Made by a program: the position numbers and the translations under genes
Source: Octopus sinensis
Taxonomy: Eukaryota
Reading direction: 5' to 3'
DNA length: 64,000 nucleotides
NCBI RefSeq assembly: GCF_006345805.1
Contig: NC_043012.1
Span: 28,892,001 to 28,956,000, forward strand
Shown here: in pieces, positions 2,864 through 52,070 of the stretch
How the letters are laid out: the number at the start of each line of letters is the position of its first letter
How positions within the stretch are numbered: position 1 is the first letter of the stretch
The notes under the pieces: generated by a model
Database searches by the model: none
Seen by the model: only the letters and a program-made list of their open reading frames with translations
What the model was told of the DNA's origin: nothing

Positions 2864-3605
2864 ATAAATTAAGAAAAGGAGTTAAATGCGGGTGTTATTC
2901 AAATCAATTAGACTTCCAACTTTCGAAAACATCATTGAGATTATTCCGGAGGGAATAACAATGATGTAAACCAATGTAATCATCTCGCCAGAGAAACAGG
3001 AACAAAACACATCAATAAGCCATTTTAACTGAATGTGATTACCGCGTACATAAGAATATGATGTTACTTTTTTAAGCGTTATTTAAAAAAAACCTTTCAT
3101 AGATTTAACGTCAAAGGTAAATTAGAGAAAGAGAAGGAGGAGAAAGAAAGAAATGAACTGAAAATTAAGAGTGGAAAAATATAGTGTGATAGATGAATGG
3201 AAATAAAGTTTAAAAGCGTGGAAATAGATATATGTAGTGGAATGAAATGTAAGAAGATAGTTGAAGGTCAAATTTTATAGATTGGTGGAACTTACTTATA
3301 GGAACTACAAATATGTTTTTGACAATGTTTACAACAATAAACGCGTTCTTTAAACGTGTTTTCAAGAGTATTCTTCGAGAAAAGGCTGACAAGTAGCTCT
3401 TCGTTACAGAGCGGACAAAAAGATTTACCTTTGTCATATGGGAAAGATCAAGATAGAATTTTCCATTCCAAACCGTATTGTTTATTATGTTCCTTTTGAG
3501 ACCAAATTAATTAACTAAGCCCAGTATTGTTGTGTTTCTTAATATGTCTAACATGTAGAATAATGGTCAGATATTCTTTTCGACAACTGAGGGGAATATA
3601 TATGT
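2862..3605 (-). mobile_element. Penelope-like element 3' remnant (GIY-YIG C-terminal region plus 3' UTR)
   Basis: Minus translation NTGLS*LIWSQKEHNKQYGLEWKILS*SFPYDKGKSFCPLCNEE..CCKH matches the T-LS-IW / WKI / CxLC / CxH pattern of PLE endonucleases. Confidence 0.7.
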
Positions 3606-3922: not shown

Positions 3923-5005
3923 TTGAATTTGAATGAAAGAAGATGATTGTTATCACCGTAAGTTGGGCTGCGATTAGTCGAGGAAGGTCACGTTGTGTCG
4001 TGGTTTAATGTTGTTATAACCGTATATCAGTGCCGACAGTTAGTTGAGAAACACAGCATAGTGAACAGGAATTAGACCATGTGGTGGGGAGGAAATCGAC
4101 TGCGTGGTGGACAGGAAATCTTTCAGGTTATTGGAGTGGAGGTAGGAAGGGGCGGTATGCGCAAGTATATAGTTGTATATGTGGGTATGTGGACGCACTC
4201 ATGGTTTTGCATACATTTCTGTATTGATGCAAGCGCGTGCATTTACGCATGGGCGCGCACGCGTCTCCATGCATAGAGAAATATAAATGGACAAGCGAGC
4301 GCATATGCACACACACGCGCACGCACACACACATACATACACGTGCACTCATACAAATAGACGTCCACGCGCGGACACTCACACACACGCACACACAAAC
4401 ACACACACATACTGACACTTGCGTATGTACGATGCATGCATGCATGCACTCTTCTACGAGAACCCATCCACCACTACACCTTTGGATAAATTCGGCTTCA
4501 AATACCGAAAGCACCCCCACCCACGTATGAAAGACCTTGAGAACTTCGAGACTGACCTATGGAATATTGTAAAGAAGCTAGTGTTTCCTGAAATCCCTAA
4601 ATGACAATATGACTAGCATTAAACAATCGCCTAACATACACAGCCTCGCAGACTTAACGAAGAACATTTACGAAATAAACACTTCCATACACTCAAGACA
4701 TCTTAAAATCGCCATCACCAAAACATACAGGAAAACTCGTAATTGCACATACATTGACATAAACATAGAAGCAAAGGAGCTAGCCACCCGCCTTAATATA
4801 GAGCAGCGTTTCTCAACCGGGTACCCCGGAACCCTTGTGTTCCACAAAAGGTTCCTAGGGTTCCACGAGAAAGAGTGAGATAAGCTAATGCTAATTTCAT
4901 GACCGTAATATTACTATACATGCACAATGTATTATTGGTTATTGTAATATGGTAATATAGACATCATCCTATCTAACTTATTATGTTATCAAAAAAGTAT
5001 AACAA

Positions 5006-5065
<60 letters not shown>

Positions 5066-5074
5066 TTTTATATA

Positions 5075-5780
5075 TAGAGGGCATTATTATACATACATGC
5101 CACACGCTAAGAGGGACAAAATTAGTCATTTCTACCAAAAATTTTACTAATGTATAATAATGTATACTAATGTATAATAATGCCCTCTATATATAAATTA
5201 ATATGTTCAATAAGAAAGAATTATTTTCGAAATTTTTTCTTTTATGAGGTTTTTCACGCTATCTACCGATAATTTCTTGTTAAGTTTTCCTTATTAAGAA
5301 GTTGTCCTTAATTGCTAAATTTTTTTTCCGAAAAAACTTTTCCTTTCCCGAAATGCAATTCGTAAAAGTCTGCCATTTACCGGATGTAATATATGTAAAC
5401 CCACCCATGTGCTTCGTTGAAGTTGATCAGATAGTTGCTCGGCTTAGACGAGTTGGGTTCGTTTATTTATGATGCGTCCAGACTTGCTGATGAATACAGA
5501 GGTATGAAATCATAGGTGATACAAGTCCATATTTTTAAATGTCTTACTTTGAAAAATTGCATTCGGTGGGATTAGTAAAATTTTTGGTAGAAATGACTAA
5601 TTTTGTCCCTCTTAGCGTGTGGCATGTATGTATAATAATGCCCTCTATATATAAATTAATATGTTCAATAAGAAAGAATTATTTTCGAAATTTTTTCTTT
5701 TATGAGGTTTTTCACGCTATCTACCCGATAATTTCTTGTTAAGTTTTCCTTATTAAGAAGTTGTCCTTAATTGCTAAATA
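5075..5780 (+). mobile_element. Retrozyme-like / non-autonomous PLE: ~460-bp unit with partial tandem copy, 5' inverted segment and central hammerhead
   Basis: ~150-bp direct repeat at 5170-5320 and 5630-5780. 5076-5150 is the reverse complement of ~5570-5650. Flanked by (TA)n. Confidence 0.8.
5481..5527 (+). ncRNA. Intact type I hammerhead ribozyme
   Basis: GACTTG-CTGATGA-ATAC(AGAG)GTAT-GAA-ATCA(TAGG)TGAT-A-CAAGTC. All three stems are Watson-Crick paired and the core is intact. Confidence 0.88.
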
Positions 5781-8267
5781 TATATATATACATATATGAT
5801 GTTTACTACGTGAACTACGATGAAAAAATATGAGAAAGATATGATATATAATTTTTTTGTGCAGGGGTTCTTTGAGACATAATTTATCTTAAGAGTTACG
5901 CAAGAGTAAAAAGGTTCAGAAGCATTGACATAGAAGATCGCATGTACTACCTCGTCCTCCCCCTAACACACACACACATTACACTTAAGGGCCATAAGCC
6001 AAACTTCCTTTTCAATCACAAATGTAGGCTGATCGACCCCTCTGAAAGTGACAGAGGTATCAGCAAACGAATTCTCGATACTATTAACTACAATATCAGA
6101 AGAGCTACAGGGTTGACTCAACGGAACTACAGCGCAGCCGTGATCGACTGGTTTTGCGGTACCGAGAATAAATCAGCCTGCAGATTCACCCCGTTCTATT
6201 GTTTCATATCTAAACCCTCCTCCTGAAGGTCCTAACTTTTGCTGAGCAATACACAAGCATTAGTGATATTGATATCAGAATTATCATGAATGCCAGAAAG
6301 TCAATTCTGGTCCGAGACAATTCCTTCTGGGTGAAGAAAGAAGGTGATCCATTGTTTGATGTCTCTATGAGGATCTTTAACGGGGCTGAAATCCCCGACC
6401 TCGTCGGGTTATACATCTTAGATACCCTCAAGAGACATAACCACCCACATAGGTCGGCCCTCCATAGGGACGACAGTTGGCTATCTCAAGGCATATGAAC
6501 GGTCACGTCATGGACAGATACAGGAAGGACTCGATAAAAATATTTAAGGAGTTCGGCCTGTCCATAACGGCTACCATCAACCTGACTACAGGCGACTACT
6601 TGGACGTAACCTTAAACCTGTATACGGGGAATTATTACCCTTACAGGAAGCTTAACGCGGAAACAGTATACATCCACAAGAGTTCAAACCATCCCCACCC
6701 CGTTGTAATTAGAAACCTAGTTGCAGGGATTAGCAAACGTCTATCTAATCTCTCGGCTAATAGAGAGATCTTTAACAGGGCTACCCCCACTACAACGCTG
6801 CTTTGACTAGGAGCAGGTTTACTAAGGAGCTCATTTATGTGGACAACCACCATACAGCCTCTCCTTACCTCAAAAAGATTAGGAAAAGGAATGTTATATG
6901 GCATAACCCCCTTTTCAACCTAGAAGTTTCCCTCAACGTAGCTAGGGGCTTCAACCCCCATAATGTGAAGGTGAGCGACTCCTGCTTAGACAATATCGCA
7001 TCCAAAATTGCACTCACCAACAGACGTAAAATTGCACTTGCACCAGTCCCAACCCCAACCTGCGACTTCCGAAACTCTATCATGTGCTCTCTAGAAGGAT
7101 TCTGCTTCTGAAGGTCTGTAGTGTACAGATCTGGGAAGTCCAGATCGACCCCAGAACTTATTTTATGTAAGCCTAGTACTCATTCTATCGATCGCTGTTG
7201 CCGAACCTCTGGTTATTTTACATATTTCTGTTGAAAGCGATCATTTGTAGAAGTTAATAACTGGACTATGTAGAAACTATGCTAGTAGATGTCTGAAGTG
7301 AAGATATAAACGGACGGAAGCATTTATATTCGGCACATTATTCTTTATGAACGGAAATATCTGAATGACTTAGGTAACTATGGTCAGTGGTAATCCAACC
7401 TAATCAGCCCTTCTTTATTCACATATCGTGTGCCCTCGACTATGTTCTCCAATGTGTCTTATTTTTAAAGTGAAACGTGTAATTTGGAATACTTGGCTGC
7501 TATCTATATCCGGTCGAATGAATGCATAGAATTCCTCTTATTACTTCAGTTGAAGAGACGTTTAAGCATCAAGTGTGTGCAATTTAGCTGTGAGATTCAA
7601 AAAGATCTCAGATACCTTTTAAAAACGGTTTCATTGCCAACTTATTAAGAGGTTTAGGGTCTAACTTAATTCTCATATTTTTCAGCTAAAGAGTTATTTA
7701 GGTATCAACTAAATAGTACTTGCAAAACAAGAAATTAGTTTACTTAGCATTTTTGTAAAATATTTGACATATTTTCGCTGGAGAATAAGTATTCATAGAA
7801 ACGGTGACTTTAAATATATTACAGTTTAGATAAAGGAATTACAGTTCTCTAATTCATTAGAATGGCACAAAGAGTGATAAAAAATGGTTTTAGATTATTC
7901 CGATTTTCATCATAATTCAAAGTTTAAATGAATACTTGCAATTTTATTTATGTAAACTTACCAATATTCCAAAAATGTTCAAGAATCACAAGGTTAGTGG
8001 CTAAAGTGCCAAAACAACCGAGGAAAATTTCTGCATTTATTTTTTCGCACAACTTTTGAAGCAAGAGTCTCGTTCTTTACTGATTTCCAACGGATCAATC
8101 ATTAGTTTATAACATTTGTGAAGCTAAGACCGACAAAGTAGGATCGGTAACTCAGTGTAAAACAACTATTGCGTAATTGGATTACCAGTTATCGCGACAG
8201 TGTTTGCATACATACGCGCGCGCATATATATATATATATGTTTGTAAGTGAAAGTATGTGTGCGTGA

Positions 8268-10643: not shown

Positions 10644-10851
10644 GAGAGGTTTTGAGTTATCTAGAAGTTCCAAAAAAACAGGTAAGGCTTTGTAAGTGCT
10701 ATGGAAGGACCACACTTTTAGACTCCCGATTCGATAGAATGAGTGAGGAGTCTAACGCGGGTCGTGTGTGAGCGTGTATGTGTTAAATAAAATGACACAA
10801 CAAAGTTAAGGCAGTGTGAAATTTCTAGGACATTTTATGAAGAGAAAGGTA

Positions 10852-10899
10852 GTTTTACAGCTGTTTCAGAGATATTAAAGATATCCCATCATCAGAGAC
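10852..10899 (-). ncRNA. Type I hammerhead (ACAGCTGT family)
   Basis: GTCT-CTGATGA-TGGGATAT..ATATCTCT-GAAA-CAGCTG-TA-AAAC. One stem I mismatch. Confidence 0.72.
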
Positions 10900-11226
10900 G
10901 ATAGAGATTTAAATAGAAGGAAATAGTAAGAGTTCAATATAAGAATTTATTTTGGAATGGGAGAGATATAGGAAGTATATTGGGAAATATAAGAATAAAA
11001 ATAAAACTATATGCTGGATGTTAAATTTGCTGTTCCATTATCCATGGAATGTGTTGTGTAGAATGGCTTCTTGTCAGGAGTTCATAATTTGTTACTACAA
11101 ATGGATTGCGAGCAGTTATTAATTCTATGTGGTGTTCATTCAAAGGGATCTTATAGTGTCAATGAAAATTTGAGAATAGAATAGATAAGGAAGTTAGGAG
11201 GAAGAAAAAAGGATTAGGAGAGGAAA

Positions 11227-11267
<41 letters not shown>

Positions 11268-11757
11268 GGAAAATAAAAAAGGAATGCTAGATGGTGGTCA
11301 AGATATTGTGAAAGGGTGGGGAGAGGAGAGCTATCAGTAGATAAAAGGAAGAAGAGGAGGAATAGAAAGCAGAGATAAGAATGTAAAGAAGGAATATGTG
11401 TGAGAAGTAGGAAGTGGGGTGATACGTTTGAAAGAGTCTAAGGTGGAGGAATAAAGAATGTGGTACGGAGTGGAGTAATAAAAGTGAGTAGTAAACCTCA
11501 AAAAGGCAAGGAAGAATAAGAAACTATAATGGTCAAGTTTCTAAAAATAGATGTAGATATTTATATGAGGTCAGAGATTGTACTAGTTAAAGTGATAGTA
11601 GGAATTAATAAATCAGTGAGAGATAGAAAAATATGTATAGAGATATACTCGCACACGCATACATATAGATGTGTATATGCACTATTCTATAGGACCGCAT
11701 ACACACACATATACGTATACATATGTATCCATACACATACGCATATATGTATGTATG

Positions 11758-11984: not shown

Positions 11985-12445
11985 TTAGATTTGTGGTAAA
12001 ATTTGAAGGTATGAAAAAAGCGGTGGTTGCATGTACCTAGGGCCTCATTATACTTATTTAGCAGTATTGAAGAGTTATGTTTTAATATGCGGAATGTCTC
12101 TTTTAGGAATAGCTTACAGGCTGAGTGTTGATCCTGGTATGGAAGCCCTGAATCTATTATGGACCATGATAAATGCTATGGAATATTTATATTTTTAAGA
12201 TGATGAATGTGACTAGCGAGGGTTGTGGATTTACTGTGTTTCTCGTATCTAAAAGAATTGAGATGTGCAGGGTATCTCTGTTTAACATTTATAGTTGATC
12301 CTATATATATGGTTGTAGAATTGTGTAGCGTGTTGAGGACTGTGCATTTGTTTATTACGTTAGACCTTCTGCAACGGGTTTGTAGAGGGCAAATGGTCCC
12401 AGAGCGTCAGTTACATGATAGTGCATTGTGGGGATTATTCTCAGG
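11985..12445 (-). pseudogene. GIY-YIG endonuclease domain of a PLE
   Basis: CN*RSGTICPLQTRCRRSNVINKCTV..IYIGST..KQRY..HLNSF..STTLASHI..WSII..CKLFLKE..LLNKYNE..CNH, with two in-frame stops. Confidence 0.85.
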
Positions 12446-12534
12446 AATGGAGGAAGTAATACTGTCTAGGGAGGGGATAGAGATGGGGGTACATTGGTCT
12501 GTGTTATTATTATTATTACTATTATTATTATTAC

Positions 12535-12618: not shown

Positions 12619-15125
12619 TAGCTTTATTTTTATAGCGTGCTTTCGTTTCACTATCGAGCGTAGCTCTGTGTGCCTTGGGTATGTGCTGTGATTTGTTGTG
12701 ATGCTCTGATGGTTATTGTATGGAAAGTGTTCTGCGTAGGATGTGTGCAGTGCCCAGTAGTGCAATTTTCTGTATGTTATATGTGTTTGTAAGTCCTGGT
12801 GTTTTTGTTATGCATTTGTCTGAATATTTTTTTATCATGCCTAATGCACCTACTATGATAGGAATTGTTTCTGTTTTTAGATTCCACATTCTGGTTACCT
12901 CTATTTCCAGGTCTTTGTATTTTGAAAGTTTCTCCATTTCTTTTAGAGACACGTTGTCATCCGGTGGTATTGATACATCAATTAGAAAACATGTTTTCCT
13001 TCATGATCTCTGACAACTATATCTGGTCTGTTGGCCTTAATTTCTCTATCTGTGTGTATCGGCATATCCCAGAGTATGGTTGCTTTCTCGTTTTCTGTGA
13101 CCTTTTCTGGTGTGTGCCTCTACCATCTTTTTTCTGTTGTTATTCCATAATGTTGGCATAGCTTCTAGTGTATGTAGGTTCCAACTCTGTTATGTCTGTG
13201 AATATATTCCTTCTTAGCCAGGACTGGGCAGCCAGAGATAATATGATTTATTGTTTCTTGTCCATCTCCACATATTCTGCAGTTACTTGTTATATTTCTT
13301 TTTATTACATGTTTTCGGTAATTTCTGGTGGGGAGGCTTTGGTCTTGTGCTGCAATTAAAAATCCCTCTGTCTCTGTTTTGAGTCCTGAGCTTCTCAACC
13401 ATTGCTGGGATTTTTCTTTGTCTATTTCTTTTGCATTTAGTTTAGTCCAGTATTTACCATGAAGGGGCTTTTCTTGCCATCGTTTTATCATGGTTCTTTG
13501 CTGTTCTATTTTTAGTTTGGATTTCATTTGTTTTATAGCTTTTGTTGTTTCTTCTTCTTCTTCTTCTTCTTCTTCTTCTTCTTCTTCTTCTTCTTCTTCT
13601 TCTTCTTCTTCTTCTTCTTCTTCTTCTTCTTCTTCTTCATATTTATTAGGTGGTATGATTTCTTGTTTGTATTTATCAGCTTCCTTAAATGCTGAGAACA
13701 GTTTTTTGTTTTGCTCGTGTTTTGCCGCTATTTGTATCAGTTTTCCTTCATTCTGAAGTAGATATTTTTGCAGTCCTATGGTGGTTAGTTTATAGTAGCT
13801 TTCCAGCTGTATAAGGCCTCTACCACCTTCTATACGTTGTATATATAGCCTTTTTATGTCAGATTTTGGGTGATGTATCCTAGATCCTGTCATTATTTTT
13901 CTTGTTTTCCTATCTATTTTGGTCAGTTCATTTAGTGTCCAGTTAAGGATATTGTAGCTGTAACTTATAACTGGGACAGCTAAAGTGTTAATACCTATTA
14001 TCTTGTTTTTAGCATTGAGCTCTGTTTTCAGTATTGATCTAACTCGTCTATAATATTTTTTTTTATTTTTTATTTCATTTGTGTGTGTTGTGTGTTATCT
14101 AGTTCATGGATTCCTAAGTATTTGTAAGTTTGGCTTTGGTCTAATTCTTTTATTTCATTGGTTTTATCTAGTGTGATGTTGCTACTCTTAACTAGTTTTC
14201 CTCTTTTCAGGGTTACCTTGGCGCATTTTTCTAATCCAAATTTCATATCTATTTCTTTGGTAAATCCATGAACTGTCTTTAATAGTGTTTCCAGCTGTTT
14301 GTCATTTGCAGCGTATAGTTTTAGGTCATCCATATATAAAAGGTGGCTGATCGTTTTGCCGTAACATTTATATCCGCATCCAGTTCTATTTAGCATATCA
14401 GATAGAGGTGACAGTGCCAAGCAGAAAAGGGGTGGAGAGCGTGTCTCCATGGAATATTCCTCTTCTAATGGGGATGGCTTTGGTTTTCATGAGTCCCTTT
14501 TTTGTTTGGAGCTGTAGCACTGTTTGCCATTTATTCATAGAGTGTCCTATGAATTTCATAGTTGTTGGTGCTACTTTGTTAATGGCTAATGTTTCGAGGA
14601 TCCATGTGTGGGGGGATGCTATCAAATGCCTTTTTGTAGTCAATCGAGGCCATACTGAGGCATTTCTCCTTTCTGTTGCTGTCTTCAGTTATGGCTTTAT
14701 TAATCCTTAGTTGATCTTTACAGCCATATGAGCCTTTGCGGCATCCTTTCTTCTCTTCTGGAAACAGGTTGTTTTCGTCCAGGTGCTTGTTCAACCTTTG
14801 CGATATCACTACAGTAAATGCATTGTACATTGTAGGGAGACAGGTTATTGGTCTGTAGTTTTCTGGTTTTGCTGTCTCATTTGATTTGGGAATTAAGATG
14901 GTTTTCCCCTTCGTGAGCCATTCAGGCATTGTCTCTGGCTCTGCTAGTATGTTGTTAAAGATTTCAGCCAGCTTTTTGTGCATTCCTGTTAGATATTTCA
15001 ACAAGAAGTTGGGGATCTTGTCATGCCCAGGTGCCTTCCAGTTGCTTAGTCTTTGCAGTGCCTGGGTGAACTCTTCAGTTGTTATGGGGGTCCAAAATTT
15101 GCTCAGATGCTGAGTTTGTTGTTTT
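12615..15125 (-). mobile_element. R4/Dong-clade LINE (RT, CCHC and REL endonuclease), 5'-truncated, inserted in (TAA)n
   Basis: NYRPITCLPT, IDYKKAFDS, RRGIFHGD, HLLYMDDLKLY, YKYLG, GGRGL, CRICG..ETINHIISGC, EKLSKYKDL..PIIVGALG. (TAA)n arrays on both sides (12505-12615, 15135-15203). Confidence 0.9.
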
Positions 15126-15132
15126 AATACTC

Positions 15133-15204
<72 letters not shown>

Positions 15205-16404
15205 CGTTGTTATTTATCCTGTCTAGGGCACTAGTATTCTGGATAGTGTCAATAGGATTGGCTGGGTTTTCGTTATGGTCTAAAGCATTGGGTTCTATAT
15301 TTGAGCTATGTATGTATTGGGGGCTCGTGTATTCAGAGTTGTTTCGGTGAATATTTTGATAATAGAGTAAGTTTTTATCTTTTAGAAGCTGTTACGATAC
15401 ACTCAAAGTTGTGTGGGGAAGAGTAGGATAGCTTTAAAGTAGATCTATTAAAGATAGAGTAATATTTATGTTGATGGGGGAAGTTGGAGTCTAATATATT
15501 AAAAAAAGGATTTTGCTAAGTTGTTAACATTCAATGAGAAGGGAGGTGTATACCATAGAATAGAGAGTCCATCGCTTTTTTTGGGAGGGAGTTTCTTGGG
15601 GGTAGTATGATATATACTTTTAGAAATTAGAGGGGGTTTAATTGCCTATTATCGTTGGCTGTTTTAGCTTTTGCCCTACTGTTATATGTGTACGTGTGGG
15701 ATCTAAGCTGTCTTAATCTGTGTTTTCCCGGGGTTCTAGAATAGTGCGCGTATGGTCTGTTATGATTCTGATGGTCAACATGTCGTGGTGATATGACTTG
15801 CGATATATGTTGCTTGAGCCTAGTATTAGAGATGTATTATATTTGTTGGGAGAAGCCGCTGAAAGCGAGCGCTTGGTTGCAGTATGGAGCGTGATTGAAT
15901 ATTTCTTGAGTGACTGAGAGATCACATATATAAATCGAAATACCCTTAACTATATTATCGAAGGTGGATTTATGGTGATTGGAATTAATGTTTAACTACT
16001 TAAGGTACTGGTTGCGATTTTCATTTTCTCTTCTTCTTTCTTTCTTTCTTTCTTTCCCTAATCCTTTAGACTCATACCATTTTTCTTCCTCCTAACATCC
16101 TTATCTATTCTATTCTCAAATTTTCATTTACACTACAAGATCCCTTTGAATGAACACCACATAGAATTAATAACTGCACACTATCCATTTGTAGTAACAA
16201 ATTATGAACTCCTGACAGAACTTACATACCATGGACAAGAAGCCTTTTTACCCATTCTATACAACACATTCCAGCATGTTTAACATCCAAAATATATTTT
16301 TATTTTTGTTCTTATATTTCCCAATATACTTCCTATATCTCTCTCATTCCAAAATAAATTCTTATATTGAACTCTACTAATTCCTTCTCTACCTCTCACA
16401 TATC

Positions 16405-16452
16405 GTCTCTGATGATGGGATATCTTTAATATTCCTGAAACAGCTGTAAGAC
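16405..16452 (+). ncRNA. Type I hammerhead (ACAGCTGT family), intact core
   Basis: GTCT-CTGATGA-T GGGATAT(CTTTA)ATATTCC T-GAAA-CAGCTG-TA-AGAC. Stem I perfect, stem III palindromic. Confidence 0.82.
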
Positions 16453-16522
16453 CAGCTTTCTCTTAATAAAATGTCCTAGAAATTTCACACCGCCTTGACT
16501 TTGTTGTCTCATCTTATTAAAG

Positions 16523-16554
<32 letters not shown>

Positions 16555-16749: not shown

Positions 16750-18520
16750 TGAAAATAAAGTAGGAAAGAAGACGCATGTGAACTACTGATGAGGAAGCTA
16801 CGTATCCAATACGCAAAACACTCAACGCGGGCATTATAGCGACAGGATACGTACCAACTGGTTAACCTGTGGCGGACAAAATATCGTTGTTACAGAGTAT
16901 GGGCAAAATATGGTTGTACGAAGTAGCCTCGTGTAGAGTAGAAAGGATGGAAGAAAGATGCAGTGTGTTTATCAGAAAATGGCCCGGTCTTCTACAACCA
17001 CTGAATACAACTGAACTATATGGAAAATCCGTGCTGCAACTACTGGTAACATCAATCGCCGAAGAATATAAGGTAGGAAGGGCAAGGACAGTAATGATGC
17101 TAAGGTATTCGAAAGATCAGAGTATCCGGGAAAACCCTCCAAAGGTACGAACAGAGAGGAAATGGAAAGTGGAAGAAGCAGTAAACAGGGCGATCGGAAA
17201 GCTAAGGCACGCCGATGTAATCGGAGCGACGTAAGAAGCAAGAGCCGGTCTAGGATTGCACAATTTCAAGCCATTTTGCATGAGCAGTGTAAAAGAGATG
17301 AAAGAGGCGGTGGTACACGAAGTGAGAAAGGAGGATGAAGAAAGGCGAAATGTACATTTGGTGCAATGTAGTCAACAGGGACAGTGCCTGAGATGGGAGG
17401 AATATGTGGTCAGTCGCAGAATCTCATGGAAGGAACTTTGGGCTTGAGAACAATCAAGAACATCCTTCCTGATCAAGTCTACCTTCGACTTTTACTTTCA
17501 CCGGCGAATTTAGTTCGGTGGAACATACCAACAACTGATGAATGTAGATGCTGATAGAAAGCGACGGTGTGACACGCTCTATCAAATTGCAGGCTAGCAC
17601 TAGACAGATATACATGGCGTCACAATCAAGTTCTTGCTGTCATATGTGCAGCATTCAAGGAGAAGATCGAGGGATATAATAGGGGAGAGTACCCAAAAGT
17701 GGAAAAGCGCGGAAAAATATACTTCCAGGAGGAGGGAAAATGACATAAAACCAGGCCTTCAAATAAAATATCCGAGATGGACGAAAGATGAAAGCGATTC
17801 TCGGAGCTGGCCGCAGATTTGGAAAGACTGTTAATATTTCGAATCTTAAAAACAACAATAAGACTTGACTTAATCCTATGGAATACAGAACGGAAAATTG
17901 GGATTTTGTTAGAGTTGCTAGTGCCATGGGAACAGAACATCGCTTATGCAGAACAACGGAAGGAGAGATTAATCGCAGAGTGCGAAGAACAGGGATGGAC
18001 TGTCGAGTATTACCACCTGGCAGTGGGGGCTAGAGGCTTCATTTAAAGTAAAATGACGACGGTGCATTTTCGAGCTCAAAGCTGAGAAAATTAATAAAGA
18101 GGATTGAGGAGGCAGTCGAAAAAGCCAGTTTCTATAAATGGCTGAAGTTAGAAGACCCAAAATGACTTGAAAGCCACAATATGCCGACTGGGAAATAGCG
18201 TTGCTAGGTGAGCAGCATCGCTGATTGACAGGTGGGCCAAGGTAGCGATCTCGTTCATAGCGTGCCCTCCTCCTGGTTCGAAGGCTTGTATCACCAAACA
18301 GCTGGTCAGCTCTGGCTGCTGGAGCCTACTGTCGAGCATTTAAAGGGAAATTTGACAGGATTGACATTCGTTGACACTGCATCGAAGAAAAAAGGAGAAA
18401 GAAGAAACGCACTTAACACAAAAGCTGAAGACACCTCCGAAAGGATGGGGGCCCCTCCATGTCGAAAACGTAGAGGAATAGGGGCCGAAACTGGACGTGG
18501 TTCCTCCTGATGATGTCTTT
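16750..18520 (+). mobile_element. HERO-like (REL endonuclease) LINE, 3' portion, degenerate
   Basis: LYGKSVLQL..SIAEEYKVGRARTVMMLR..VRTERKWKVEEAV..LRHAD, YTWRHNQVL and RLDLILW..LLELLVPWEQNI..ECEEQGW..VGARGF. Confidence 0.8.
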
Positions 18521-23922: not shown

Positions 23923-24024
23923 GTAGTAAACACATAAATGTGAAACAAGGTGGAAAAAAGAGTACTCAAATACCAGTGGTAGAGTAATATGCTTTATTTT
24001 AAGCAGCAGAAAATTCAACAAAAT

Positions 24025-24062
24025 CTGTTACTCTGAGTTTCTCGTTGCCGTTCATCAGACAG
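24025..24062 (-). ncRNA. Minimal type I hammerhead
   Basis: CTGT-CTGATGA-A CG(GCAA)CG A-GAA-ACTC(A)GAGT-A-ACAG. Confidence 0.72.
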
Positions 24063-24074
24063 TTTTTGCAAAAA

Positions 24075-24112
24075 CTGTCTGATGAACTGCAACGAGAAAC
24101 TCAGAGTAACAG
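24075..24112 (+). ncRNA. Minimal type I hammerhead, mirror copy with a stem II mismatch
   Basis: CTGT-CTGATGA-ACTGCAACGA-GAA-ACTCAGAGT-A-ACAG. Confidence 0.6.
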
Positions 24113-24169
24113 ATTTTGTTGAATTTTCTGCTGCTTAAAATAAAGTGTATATATATATATATATATATA

Positions 24170-28999: not shown

Positions 29000-29140
29000 C
29001 ATCGAAAAATACCTTAGGAATGAGAACCCAGGTTCGAAATTTCCTCAAGACACCTGATGAAGGCTGGTGGGTATATCAGCCGAAACGTTGTGTTAACAAC
29101 AAACAACATGAAGACAAATATCCGTCAAATGTAAATAATT
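29000..29140 (+). mobile_element. Short PLE-type terminal fragment carrying a minimal hammerhead
   Basis: Short non-coding segment centred on the HHR motif. Boundaries approximate. Confidence 0.55.
29049..29094 (+). ncRNA. Minimal PLE-type hammerhead (GAAACGTT)
   Basis: GACAC-CTGATGA-A-GGCTG..CAGCC-GAAACGTT-GTGTT. Stems I and II pair. Stem III is reduced to the palindrome AACGTT. Confidence 0.8.
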
Positions 29141-34195: not shown

Positions 34196-35485
34196 CGAGG
34201 GGCGTTCAATAAGTAATGCCTCTGGCCCACTTGCAGTTTTTTGATCTTGCTGAAATTTTGCATGTGAAATTATTGATATCTCTATATATTAAGTGGCAAA
34301 TTACAGCTCTGAACTAATTGTGGTTTCTGATTTACAGGTGTTTGAACTGAGTCAAGTGTGAAATGGAGCCTGTTGAGTGTCGAACAGTGATCCGGTTTTT
34401 GCATTTGAAAGGACACACACCACGGGAGACTTTTGCTGAAATGAAAGTAACTTATGGTGATGATGCCCCATCATATGACCTTGTAAAACGCTGGCATCGT
34501 GAATTCAAACATGGTCGGAACTCTGTGGAAACAGCTCCCAGATCTGGTCGCCCCACTTCTGCCATTGATGAGGTATCTGTCCGTCAAGTTGAGGCTGCCA
34601 TTTTGGAAGATCGACGCATAACTATTCGCCAAATAGTCCATGAGGTCAAGATTAGTACCGGGTCTGTGGAAACTATCATTCATGACTATTTGCATATGCA
34701 AAAGGTGTCTGCCAGATGGATTCCCAGGTTGTTCACACCTTTCCAGAAGCAAGAACGCGTCGAGTGCTCGAGGATGAATTTTGAGATGTGCCAAGAAGAT
34801 GAGTCAAACTTTTTCAAAAGACTGATTACACATGATGAAACCTGGGTCCATCACTATGATCCAGAGACCAAAGCCCAGTCAATGCAGTGGAGGCACCGTG
34901 ACTCACCTTCTCCAAAGAAGGCAAGTGTGCAGCCCTCCACTGGCAAGATCATGCTCACAATCTTCTGGGACCAGGAGGGAATAATGATGACAGATTTCCT
35001 GGCAAAGGATACCACAATTACAGGAGCCTTTATGCTTCACTTTTGAGGAAATTAAGAGAAGCTATCAAAATCAAGAGGCGGGGCAATATCAGCAAAGGCA
35101 TCCTCCTCCTGCAGGACAACGCTCCGGTCCACAACTCGCGTGTCGCCAGATCAGAAGCACAGGCGTGCGGCTATGAACTCCTCCCCATCCCCCTACTCTC
35201 TTGACCTTGCACCCTCTAATTTTCATCTCTTCCCAGCCATAAAGTTGTTTTTGAAAGGAAAGCGTTTCCCAGATGATGCAGCCTTGATTTCTGAAGTTAC
35301 GTCGTGGTTGGAGGACCAAGCTAGGGTCTTCTACAAAAACGGTCTCCAGAGCTGCATCAAACGATGGGAGAAAGGCGTAACTCTGGGTGCTTCCTATGTA
35401 GAAAAAGACTAATAACTGCGCCAAGTTTCGTTGCTCTACTACTATGGGAAGTGGGTCAGGGGCATTACTTATTGAACGCCCCTCG
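34196..35485 (+). mobile_element. Full-length mariner transposon (~1.29 kb)
   Basis: TA TSDs. TIR CGAGGGGCGTTCAATAAGTAATGCC is perfectly inverted at 35461-35485. Confidence 0.95.
34363..35412 (+). pseudogene. Mariner transposase with frameshifts
   Basis: RSGRP, SARWIPR, THDETWVHHYDPETK, LLQDNAP, YSLDLAPSNF (third Asp appears as Asn). Reading frame broken near 35030 and 35180. Confidence 0.9.
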
Positions 35486-36970: not shown

Positions 36971-37160
36971 AGAAAATGGAGAAATACATCTAAATGAAAT
37001 ATCAATTACACGATAATACTCAATCACATACTTTATTAAACCACCACATAAGAGACTGTAGGGTTACATATAAAAAGCAGAACAAATCAGTGTACATACA
37101 GTAGTGTACATAAAAGAGTAATGATGTATAATAAGTAGAATATATATATATATATATATA

Positions 37161-37554
37161 GAAGTGGCTGTGTGGTAAGTAGCTTGCTAACCAGCCACAT
37201 GGTTCCGGGTTCAGTCCCACTGCGTGGCATCTTGGGCAAGTGTCTTCTGCTATAGCCCCGGGCCGACCAATGCCTTGTGAGTGGATTTGGTAGACGGAAA
37301 CTGAAAGAAACCTGTCGTATATATGTATATATATATGTATGTATGTGTGTGTGTGCTTGTGTCTCTGTGTTTGTTCCCCTAGCATTGCTTGTCAACCGAT
37401 GCTGGTGTGTTTACGTCCCCGTCACTTAGCAGTTCGGCAAAAAGAGACCGATAGAATAAGTACTGGGCTTACAAAGAATAAGTCCCGATTTGCTCGACTA
37501 AAGGCGGTGCTCCAGCATGGCCGCAGTTAAATGACTGAAACAAGTAAAAGAGTA
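37161..37554 (+). mobile_element. tRNA-derived SINE family A, full length with internal microsatellite
   Basis: GTGGCTGTGTGGT (A-box-like) and GGTTCAGTCCC (B-box-like). Several copies occur in the window. Confidence 0.85.
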
Positions 37555-38483: not shown

Positions 38484-38705
38484 TCTTTTACTCTCTTACT
38501 CTTTTGCTCTTTTACTTGTTTCAGCCATTTGACTGCGGCCATGCTGCAGCACCGCCTTTAGTCGAGCAACTCGACCCCGGGATTTATTGGGCTTACAAAT
38601 AAGCCCAGTACTTATTCTATCGGTCTCTTTTTGCCGAACCGCTAAGTGACGGGGACGTAAACACACCAGCATCGGTTGTCAAGCAATGCTAGGGGAACAA
38701 ACACA

Positions 38706-38773
<68 letters not shown>

Positions 38774-38936
38774 CGACAGGCTTCTTTCAGTTTCCGTCTA
38801 CCAAATCCACTCACAAGGCATTGGTCGGCCCGGGGTTATAGCAGAAGACACTTGGCCAAGATGCCACGCAGTGGGACTGAGCCCGGAACCATGTGGCTGG
38901 TTAGCAAGCTACTTACCACACAGCCACTCCTGCGCC

Positions 38937-38937
<1 letters not shown>
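38481..38937 (-). mobile_element. SINE family A, full length
   Basis: Reverse complement of 37161-37554, with a short tandem tail. Confidence 0.85.
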
Positions 38938-39029
<92 letters not shown>

Positions 39030-49193: not shown

Positions 49194-49298
49194 AAGAGGA
49201 GGAACCACGTCCGGTTTCGGCCCCTACTCCTCTACCGTTTTGATGTGGCGCCCCCACCCCCCACTCGTTTCGGAGGTGTCTTCAGCTCTGGTGTTGAG
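49194..49298 (-). mobile_element. Isolated copy of the HERO-like LINE 3' end
   Basis: Reverse-complement match to ~18415-18510 (GCTGAAGACACCTCCGAAA..TAGGGGCCGAAAC..GACGTGGTTCCTCCT). Confidence 0.8.
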
Positions 49299-51916: not shown

Positions 51917-51923
51917 ATATATA

Positions 51924-52070
51924 CTTTATTTAAAGCAGCAGAAAATTCAACAAAACCTGTTACAGGTTTTGTTGAATTTTCTGCTGCTTTAAATAAAGCA
52001 TATTACTCTACCACTGGTATTTGAGTACTCTTTTTTCCACCTTGTTTCACATTTATGTGTTTACTCCGGT
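51924..52070 (+). mobile_element. Second copy of the 24-kb fold-back element, with 37-bp arms and no hammerhead core
   Basis: Arms 51924-51960 and 51962-51998. The tail is the reverse complement of 23921-23991. Confidence 0.85.

What the first reader, a model, noticed from the sequence alone, without database searches (positions are those of the whole stretch)
5075..5780. Best retrozyme candidate: ~460-nt non-coding monomer with an intact canonical hammerhead
Seen: an HHR at 5481-5527 with 6-bp stem I, 4-bp stem II and 4-bp stem III closed by a tetraloop, and an AUA triplet. The element is about 1.3 tandem units plus a 5' inverted piece, with a short junction reiteration (TAATGTATAATAATG) at ~5148-5182. 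Known: partial-tandem plus inverted ends are typical of PLE-type insertions and of cDNA from circular or multimeric templates. Inference: this HHR could cleave as a monomer and produce a ~460-nt circular RNA.
Basis: partly seen in the sequence, partly recalled or inferred. Interest (0 to 1): 0.8.

Follow-up and report, generated by a model that had tools for sequence, protein, structure and literature searches.

The report
Hammerhead-bearing Penelope-type parasitic repeat
A 458-base non-coding repeat with one complete self-cutting hammerhead RNA motif sits here as a likely recent insertion of an abundant animal repeat family, likely copied by Penelope-like retrotransposons as the known 'retrozymes' are thought to be, but this copy has only one ribozyme and neither cutting nor an RNA circle has been shown.

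Summary
There is a type I hammerhead at 5481-5527 (0 of 100 shuffled windows give one), a 458/459-nt unit present 1.33 times, a perfect 85-bp inverted 5' piece and a 20-bp junction duplication. New here: a 14-16-bp target duplication in (TA)n, and nesting in a MITE-like insert inside an older, unrelated Hydra-clade-like Penelope remnant. Public runs show an abundant family with head-to-tail joints in all 4 runs laid, and hammerhead variants that change loops but keep stems and core. The unit is predicted to fold strongly (z -5.8). One ribozyme cannot cut out a monomer, so this locus is a product, not a source, of any circle. Its core is predicted to misfold, and no contig spans two ribozymes. 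Best reading: a solo copy of a non-autonomous, Penelope-mobilised hammerhead repeat (non-LTR retrozyme kind), a new member of a known kind. A lead: contigs from two probable RNA runs carry A>G clusters, one through the catalytic core, which looks like ADAR editing. Interest 0.38.

The parts
5067..5779 (+). whole insertion: inverted piece, junction, 1.33 units
5170..5627 (+). one full 458-nt non-coding unit, 32.5% GC, longest stop-free stretch 63 codons when read as a circle
5628..5779 (+). second, partial copy of the unit (repeat of 5170-5320, one extra base); forward end of the insertion
5481..5527 (+). type I hammerhead motif; predicted cut after 5521
5067..5151 (-). inverted 5' piece, exact reverse complement of 5571-5655
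5145..5182 (+). 20-bp tandem duplication spanning the join of inverted and forward parts (2-nt AT microhomology at the join)
   Evidence: read from the sequence
5050..5065 (+). left copy of a 14-16-bp target-site duplication, at the end of a (TA)n tract that starts at 5008
5778..5793 (+). right copy of the target-site duplication (first 2 bases shared with the element end)
4804..5927 (.). host of the insertion: decayed MITE-like insert, 15-bp terminal inverted repeats 11/15 alike, 8-bp flanking duplication 6/8 alike (hAT-like by recall)
   Evidence: read by eye
4446..4809 (+). left part of a broken Hydra-clade-like Penelope ORF interrupted by the MITE-like insert
5924..7135 (+). right part of the same broken Penelope ORF (RT region to the linker)

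Best explanation
This is a single, likely recent insertion of an abundant non-coding 458-nt hammerhead repeat that is likely copied in trans by the reverse transcriptase-endonuclease of a Penelope-like element (PLE), and this copy is likely a dead-end product that would not release a circle by itself. Shown: the motif, the 1.33-unit layout, the inversion, the target duplication, the (TA)n site, the nesting, and head-to-tail joints in the family. Inferred mechanism: (1) a source locus with more than one unit is transcribed on the hammerhead strand; (2) a PLE protein nicks both strands of an AT-rich target 14-16 bp apart; (3) one nicked end primes inside the RNA at the point matching 5779 and copies 610 nt, crossing the ribozyme cut site, so the template was uncut there or re-ligated; (4) the other nicked end primes at the point matching 5655 and copies 85 nt, giving the inverted piece; (5) the two cDNA ends are joined through 2 nt of microhomology with a 20-bp repair duplication. 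In source loci with two or more ribozymes the RNA would be cut to monomers and could be circularised, as shown for coral, mussel and axolotl retrozymes. That step is untested for this family.
For: Partial tandem, adjacent inverted 5' copy and (TA)n targeting are the PLE insertion pattern (PMC8557442). A purified PLE protein nicks and extends both strands at AT-rich DNA, starts inside the RNA and uses uncut RNA (PMC11167929). The target duplication of 14-16 bp is measured. The stretch between the two repeats is 307 nt with no ORF, and 174 proteins, mostly PLE-like, give one marginal 19-aa hit (E 0.015). Family: 2591 and 1014 contigs laid in the two DNA-like runs, with end-to-start joints in all 4 runs (table 5c); 20 of 24 listed runs under 5 organism labels hold part of the unit (4 of them laid). 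Loose ends show hammerhead variants with changed loops but kept stems, GAAA and AUA (table 7, read by eye). The unit folds at -114.7 kcal/mol against -83.0 +/- 5.4 for shuffles (0 of 60 as low); 22 control strands reach z -3.5 at best. Other PLE remnants with hammerheads and inverted ends lie in the same window.
Against: No autonomous partner sharing sequence with the unit was found: only the window could be searched. No contig spans a whole unit, so arrays with two ribozymes are not shown. The two primed ends differ by 124 nt in unit position, whereas the anole PLE starts at the same sites on both strands. The active fold is disfavoured in this copy. Common family substitutions do not significantly spare the predicted pairs (7 of 20 break a pair, 9.2 expected, P 0.18). 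Contig depth over 5442-5521 is far below the flanks, so most copies differ there and their ribozymes were seen only in short pieces.
Confidence: 0.72

Rival explanations
1. The unit is mainly the terminal repeat of an autonomous PLE, and this locus is an internally deleted or truncated copy, not a self-standing retrozyme family.
For: Retrozymes resemble PLE terminal repeats, and most PLE insertions are 5'-truncated (10.64898/2026.07.22.740005). Only 24 of 145 loose ends were shown, and the low-depth hammerhead region could hide an exit into an ORF. In the anole PLE the ORF starts inside the hammerhead.
Against: The unit runs into itself after 458 nt with no ORF. End-to-start joints occur in all 4 runs, and the best-supported loose ends in the DNA-like runs are short variants of the unit. 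Two contigs of run X17 bridge the hammerhead region and return to the unit.
Confidence: 0.13
2. The repeat is mobilised by a LINE-type element (for example a microsatellite-targeting R4/Dong or RTE element) with a twin-priming 5' inversion.
For: Inversion with a target duplication is also the L1 twin-priming pattern (recalled). LINE RT remnants are in the window, and Dong-R4 and RTE families are listed as recently active in Octopus vulgaris (PMC13282606). That Dong targets simple repeats is recalled.
Against: No poly(A) or LINE-like 3' tail. The ends lie inside the unit and differ among copies (5320/5779 and 5655 here; about 5611 followed by (TA)n in run X3). Partial tandems with a type I hammerhead are PLE features.
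Confidence: 0.1
3. It is a satellite-like repeat spread at the DNA level, with a vestigial ribozyme.
For: Predicted misfolding. 8 of 9 predicted Xenopus elements did not cleave.
Against: The target duplication, inversion and repair duplication indicate a discrete insertion. Variants keep stems and core while loops change. Folding is stronger on the ribozyme strand (z -5.8 against -3.1).
Confidence: 0.05

Closest known systems
Metazoan non-LTR retrozymes (Cervera and de la Pena 2020, PMC7229834; Li, Clavereau and Pollet 2026, 10.64898/2026.07.22.740005)
   Same: Type I hammerhead in a small non-coding head-to-tail unit, GC under 50%, target duplication longer than 4 bp, strong predicted self-pairing, PLEs in the same genome. 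Solo copies are a described class.
   Different: The unit (458 nt; about 480 in the common variant, inferred from the 23-27-nt extra piece) is just above the 150-450 bp of the 2020 paper, within the 51-972 bp of the 2026 preprint. There is one ribozyme at this locus, and it is not free in the predicted circle fold. Cleavage and circles are untested. The sections read do not describe 5' inversions in retrozyme insertions.
Penelope-like elements, Hydra clade (Craig et al. 2021, PMC8557442) and the anole Poseidon element (Frangieh et al. 2024, PMC11167929)
   Same: Partial tandem, inverted 5' copy, (TA)n or AT-rich target, hammerhead, ends inside the RNA.
   Different: No ORF. Stem III is closed by a loop (monomer-type), whereas PLE hammerheads are usually minimal (PMC6155905), as the other motifs in this window are. 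The two primed ends are 124 nt apart.
Schistosoma Sm-alpha and newt satellite 2 hammerhead repeats (as described in PMC6155905 and PMC7229834)
   Same: Type I hammerhead in an abundant animal repeat.
   Different: No sequence comparison was made. Rfam hammerhead models do not hit this motif.

Membership tests
non-LTR retrozyme | type I hammerhead with conserved core and three stems | tested here: met
non-LTR retrozyme | small non-coding unit, GC under 50% | tested here: met
   458 nt, 32.5% GC, at most 63 stop-free codons; no credible protein hit
non-LTR retrozyme | head-to-tail organisation | tested here: met
   1.33 units here; end-to-start joints in 4 of 4 runs
non-LTR retrozyme, active locus (Li et al. 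criterion) | two or more consecutive units each with a complete hammerhead, at this locus | tested here: not met
   one hammerhead in the insertion; hence filed as a solo copy, not an active retrozyme locus
non-LTR retrozyme, family level | loci with two or more hammerheads elsewhere in the genome | tested here: inconclusive
   no contig spans a whole unit; no genome held
non-LTR retrozyme | target duplication longer than 4 bp | tested here: met
   14-16 bp, mostly TA repeat, so the length is soft
non-LTR retrozyme | highly self-paired predicted circle | tested here: met
   z -5.8, 66% paired; controls
non-LTR retrozyme | hammerhead free to fold in the predicted circle (most, not all, animal cases) | tested here: not met
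   4 of 14 hammerhead pairs in the circular MFE; the model ignores tertiary contacts
non-LTR retrozyme | self-cleavage in vitro | not testable with these tools
   bench test needed
non-LTR retrozyme | monomer-length linear and circular RNA in vivo | not testable with these tools
   only contigs of runs guessed to be RNA were available
non-LTR retrozyme | no primer-binding site or polypurine tract | not tested
   no host tRNA set was compared
autonomous Penelope-like element | ORF with RT and GIY-YIG endonuclease | tested here: not met
PLE-type insertion | partial tandem, inverted 5' copy, (TA)n target | tested here: met
PLE-type insertion | fixed start sites giving a 30-40-bp tail | tested here: inconclusive
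   three different ends seen (5320/5779, 5655, about 5611); too few to judge

The most novel reading that the evidence does not exclude
One of this animal's very abundant repeats is a retrozyme whose ~460-480-nt RNA circles are copied by a (TA)n-targeting PLE, and ADAR editing of the ribozyme's GAAA core and cut-site A is the switch that stops the RNA cutting itself. That would answer the open question in PMC7229834 of what blocks the hammerhead in animal retrozyme circles. Basis: three A>G sites seen only in the two probable RNA runs, and one contig end with six A>G changes through the core.
Probability: 0.1. Interest if true: 0.72.

Novelty: new member of a known kind. Interest (0 to 1): 0.38.

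Why it matters
Hammerhead repeats of this kind are known from many animals, so the element itself is not surprising. Two things give it modest value. First, PLE mobilisation of animal retrozymes rests so far on co-occurrence and sequence kinship; a clean young insertion with PLE-type inversion, partial tandem and target duplication is anatomical support, and the family looks large enough to map priming sites and test circle against multimer. Second, if the host is an octopus (recalled resemblance, untested), my searches found no report of hammerhead repeats there, and heavy A-to-I editing makes it a good system to test whether editing controls a natural ribozyme.

Tried and rejected
No whole genome is held, so copy number, permutation and partner could not be surveyed. 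Rfam gave no hammerhead hit at gathering or loose thresholds. Pattern scans of metagenome contigs and viral contigs found 0 matches. Earlier findings by place, sequence and one word set gave nothing. No RNA holder listed on record; the two probable RNA runs have no cover at 5474-5505, which is not used as evidence. Covariation test of family substitutions against the predicted fold was not significant (20 of the 36 listed substitutions, those common in the DNA-like runs). My first guess that the flanking remnant is a Naiad was rejected: its homologues have RW[KR], DKT, a CxCx5C-type linker and a C-terminal endonuclease motif, the Hydra-clade features. That the hammerhead unit is the terminal repeat of the flanking remnant was rejected: it is nested inside it, far younger, and shares no DNA similarity with the rest of the window. 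Pfam did not name the remnant or its homologues, and one homologue search scored nothing. The bacterial promoter/terminator scan is irrelevant to this host. Three short motifs of the unit were not found in a matching context in the Craig et al. supplement. Searches on AUA triplets and twin priming gave nothing I used. The supplement of PMC7229834 could not be read; it lists further invertebrate retrozymes and may bear on novelty. The supplements of the bioRxiv preprint are closed, and that of PMC13282606 was listed but not read.

Full report
Observation. A type I hammerhead lies at 5481-5527 with stems of 6, 4 and 4 Watson-Crick pairs, an intact CUGAUGA/GAA core and an AUA triplet, the cut predicted after 5521. 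A strict scan finds it once in the window and in 0 of 100 shuffled windows. Rfam misses it. The unit is 458/459 nt: 5170-5320 recurs at 5628-5779 with one extra base, and 5067-5151 is the exact reverse complement of 5571-5655. A 20-bp duplication covers the join at 5145-5182.

Setting. The insertion (5067-5779) is flanked by a 14-16-bp duplication at the end of a (TA)n tract. That tract lies in a decayed MITE-like insert (4804-5927; terminal repeats 11/15 and flanking 8-mers 6/8 alike, read; the hAT label is recalled). The insert splits a broken ORF: one 713-aa homologue aligns in order to 4446-4809 and 5924-7132. The long homologues carry DKT (12 of 12) and, in many, RW[KR], a CxCx5C-type linker and a C-terminal YIG-like motif, the features given for the Hydra clade of PLEs, which have hammerheads and insert in (TA)n (PMC8557442, section 11). 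The host layers are decayed while the internal repeats of the insertion are 99-100% identical, so the insertion is likely young and only a passenger here. The host looks like an octopus from a recalled SINE resemblance; no call tested this.

Family. Of 24 listed runs, 20 hold part of the unit, under 5 organism labels. I laid 4 of them, all kept as contigs. The two DNA-like runs gave 2591 and 1014 contigs (about 76% of X1 was read); depth is no copy number, but the family is plainly abundant. End-to-start joints appear in all 4 runs, often with 23-31 extra letters. Depth over 5442-5521 is 5,000-28,000 against 200,000-990,000 in most flanking bins, so most copies differ from this one around the ribozyme. 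The loose ends shown (24 of 145) include variants with loop II GTAA and a near-palindromic stem III, keeping GAAA and AUA. This is by-eye reading of short pieces from 1-4 contigs each. Another end near 5611 runs into (TA)n, and one inversion joint links 5322 and 5436. With the ends here (5779 and 5655) this hints at variable ends. No contig spans a whole unit.

Folding. As a circle the unit folds at -114.7 kcal/mol against -83.0 +/- 5.4 (0 of 60 shuffles as low). The antisense strand gives z -3.1, and 22 control strands from 11 window stretches give z -3.5 at best. Against the reading: the best fold pairs the core with stem III, the active fold has probability 0.005, 0.0001 and 0.0002 in three contexts, and only 4 of 14 hammerhead pairs form in the circle. 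The model omits magnesium and tertiary contacts, and the anole PLE hammerhead cleaves only with its protein, so this lowers but does not exclude activity. Family substitutions give no significant support for the fold (7 of 20 break pairs, 9.2 expected, P 0.18).

Mechanism. Partial tandems with an adjacent inverted 5' copy are the PLE pattern (PMC8557442). A purified PLE protein nicks and extends both strands of AT-rich DNA, starts inside its RNA, and does not need ribozyme cleavage (PMC11167929). I infer two priming events at nicks 14-16 bp apart: one at +258 from the cut site copying 610 nt, one at +134 copying 85 nt, then end joining with a templated duplication (distances). The long cDNA crosses the cut site and exceeds one unit, so its template was a circle or an uncut multimer; the DNA cannot tell which. 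With one ribozyme this locus could be cut once but could not release a monomer. It matches the solo class of Li et al., not their active class. The differing start points on the two strands depart from the anole element.

Editing lead. Of 36 listed substitutions, 3 have no depth in either DNA-like run and all 3 are A>G (5574, 5578, 5580), seen in 1-2 contigs of each of the two probable RNA runs. One contig end in X17 differs from both the window and the DNA variant by six A>G changes and nothing else, including two As of GAAA and the cut-site A (compared by eye). This points to transcription of the hammerhead strand and ADAR hyper-editing. The cautions are strong: the runs are only guessed to be RNA, there is no matched DNA, and contigs are few. 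Hyper-editing of inverted repeats is common, most of all in octopus (PMC5625713, passages), and this insertion would itself form an 85-bp duplex covering 5571-5655. Ordinary repeat editing is the likelier cause. A search for hammerhead with ADAR and A-to-I editing listed 15 papers, none on natural retrozymes by title or abstract start.

Comparison and novelty. It works like a metazoan non-LTR retrozyme and meets the sequence features, but the two-ribozyme criterion is not met at this locus and cleavage and circles are untested. The kind is known from cnidarians, mussels, amphibians and many vertebrates, with PLEs as proposed helpers. Searches for hammerhead ribozyme with Octopus (4 listed of 5), hammerhead with cephalopod (15 listed of 129, mostly sharks) and octopus with Penelope (15 of 20) showed no report of this family. 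The Octopus vulgaris repeat paper has no ribozyme term in its main text and lists 31 recently active Penelope-like families. Unread supplements may name it.

What I saw of each paper. 10.64898/2026.07.22.740005: parts 1-3 of 5. PMC7229834: parts 2-4 of 6, supplement unreadable. PMC8557442: passages, section 11 and a supplement search. PMC11167929: parts 1-2 of 4. PMC13282606: part 1 of 3 and a word search. PMC5625713 and PMC6155905: passages. All others: search listings only.

Verdict. Observation confirmed, interpretation partly supported. A solo, PLE-type insertion of a probable new retrozyme-kind family: new member of a known kind, interest 0.38. The editing-switch reading has probability about 0.1 and would deserve about 0.72.

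Noticed in passing
window 10764-11274 and 16017-16540: Inverted repeats (83% alike over 528 nt) flank minus-strand PLE-like ORF remnants (12023-12493, 15378-15995). The right arm has a hammerhead with a palindromic stem III at 16405-16452, and the left arm a slightly decayed copy. A LINE RT remnant (13165-15391) lies inside.
   Followed up: partly
window 23992-24145 and 51919-52070: Head-to-head pair of minimal hammerheads (24075-24112 on +, 24062-24025 on -) in a near-perfect palindrome between (TA)n tracts; a related palindrome without the ribozyme part at about 51.9-52.1 kb.
   Followed up: partly
window 29049-29094: Minimal PLE-type hammerhead with a 4-nt palindromic stem III and a clean 5-bp stem II.
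   Followed up: no
window 18412-18508 and 49197-49298: Two 80%-identical copies of a repeat with a hammerhead-like core start; they did not pass the stem scans.
   Followed up: no
window 3283-3591: Minus-strand PLE endonuclease-like remnant just upstream of the plus-strand remnant, possibly its inverted 5' copy.
   Followed up: no
runs X6 and X17, unit positions 5223-5232 and 5348-5380: Both probable RNA runs hold contigs that share only short stretches with the unit and continue into the same other sequence: a related family, possibly the end of a helper element (table 7).
   Followed up: no
window 34351-35412: Broken mariner-type transposase (Pfam Transposase_1 and HTH_48 in 34351-35043).
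   Followed up: no
window 37140-37471 and 38600-38951: Two 92%-identical inverted copies of a SINE-like repeat that I recall as octopus-type; not tested.
   Followed up: no
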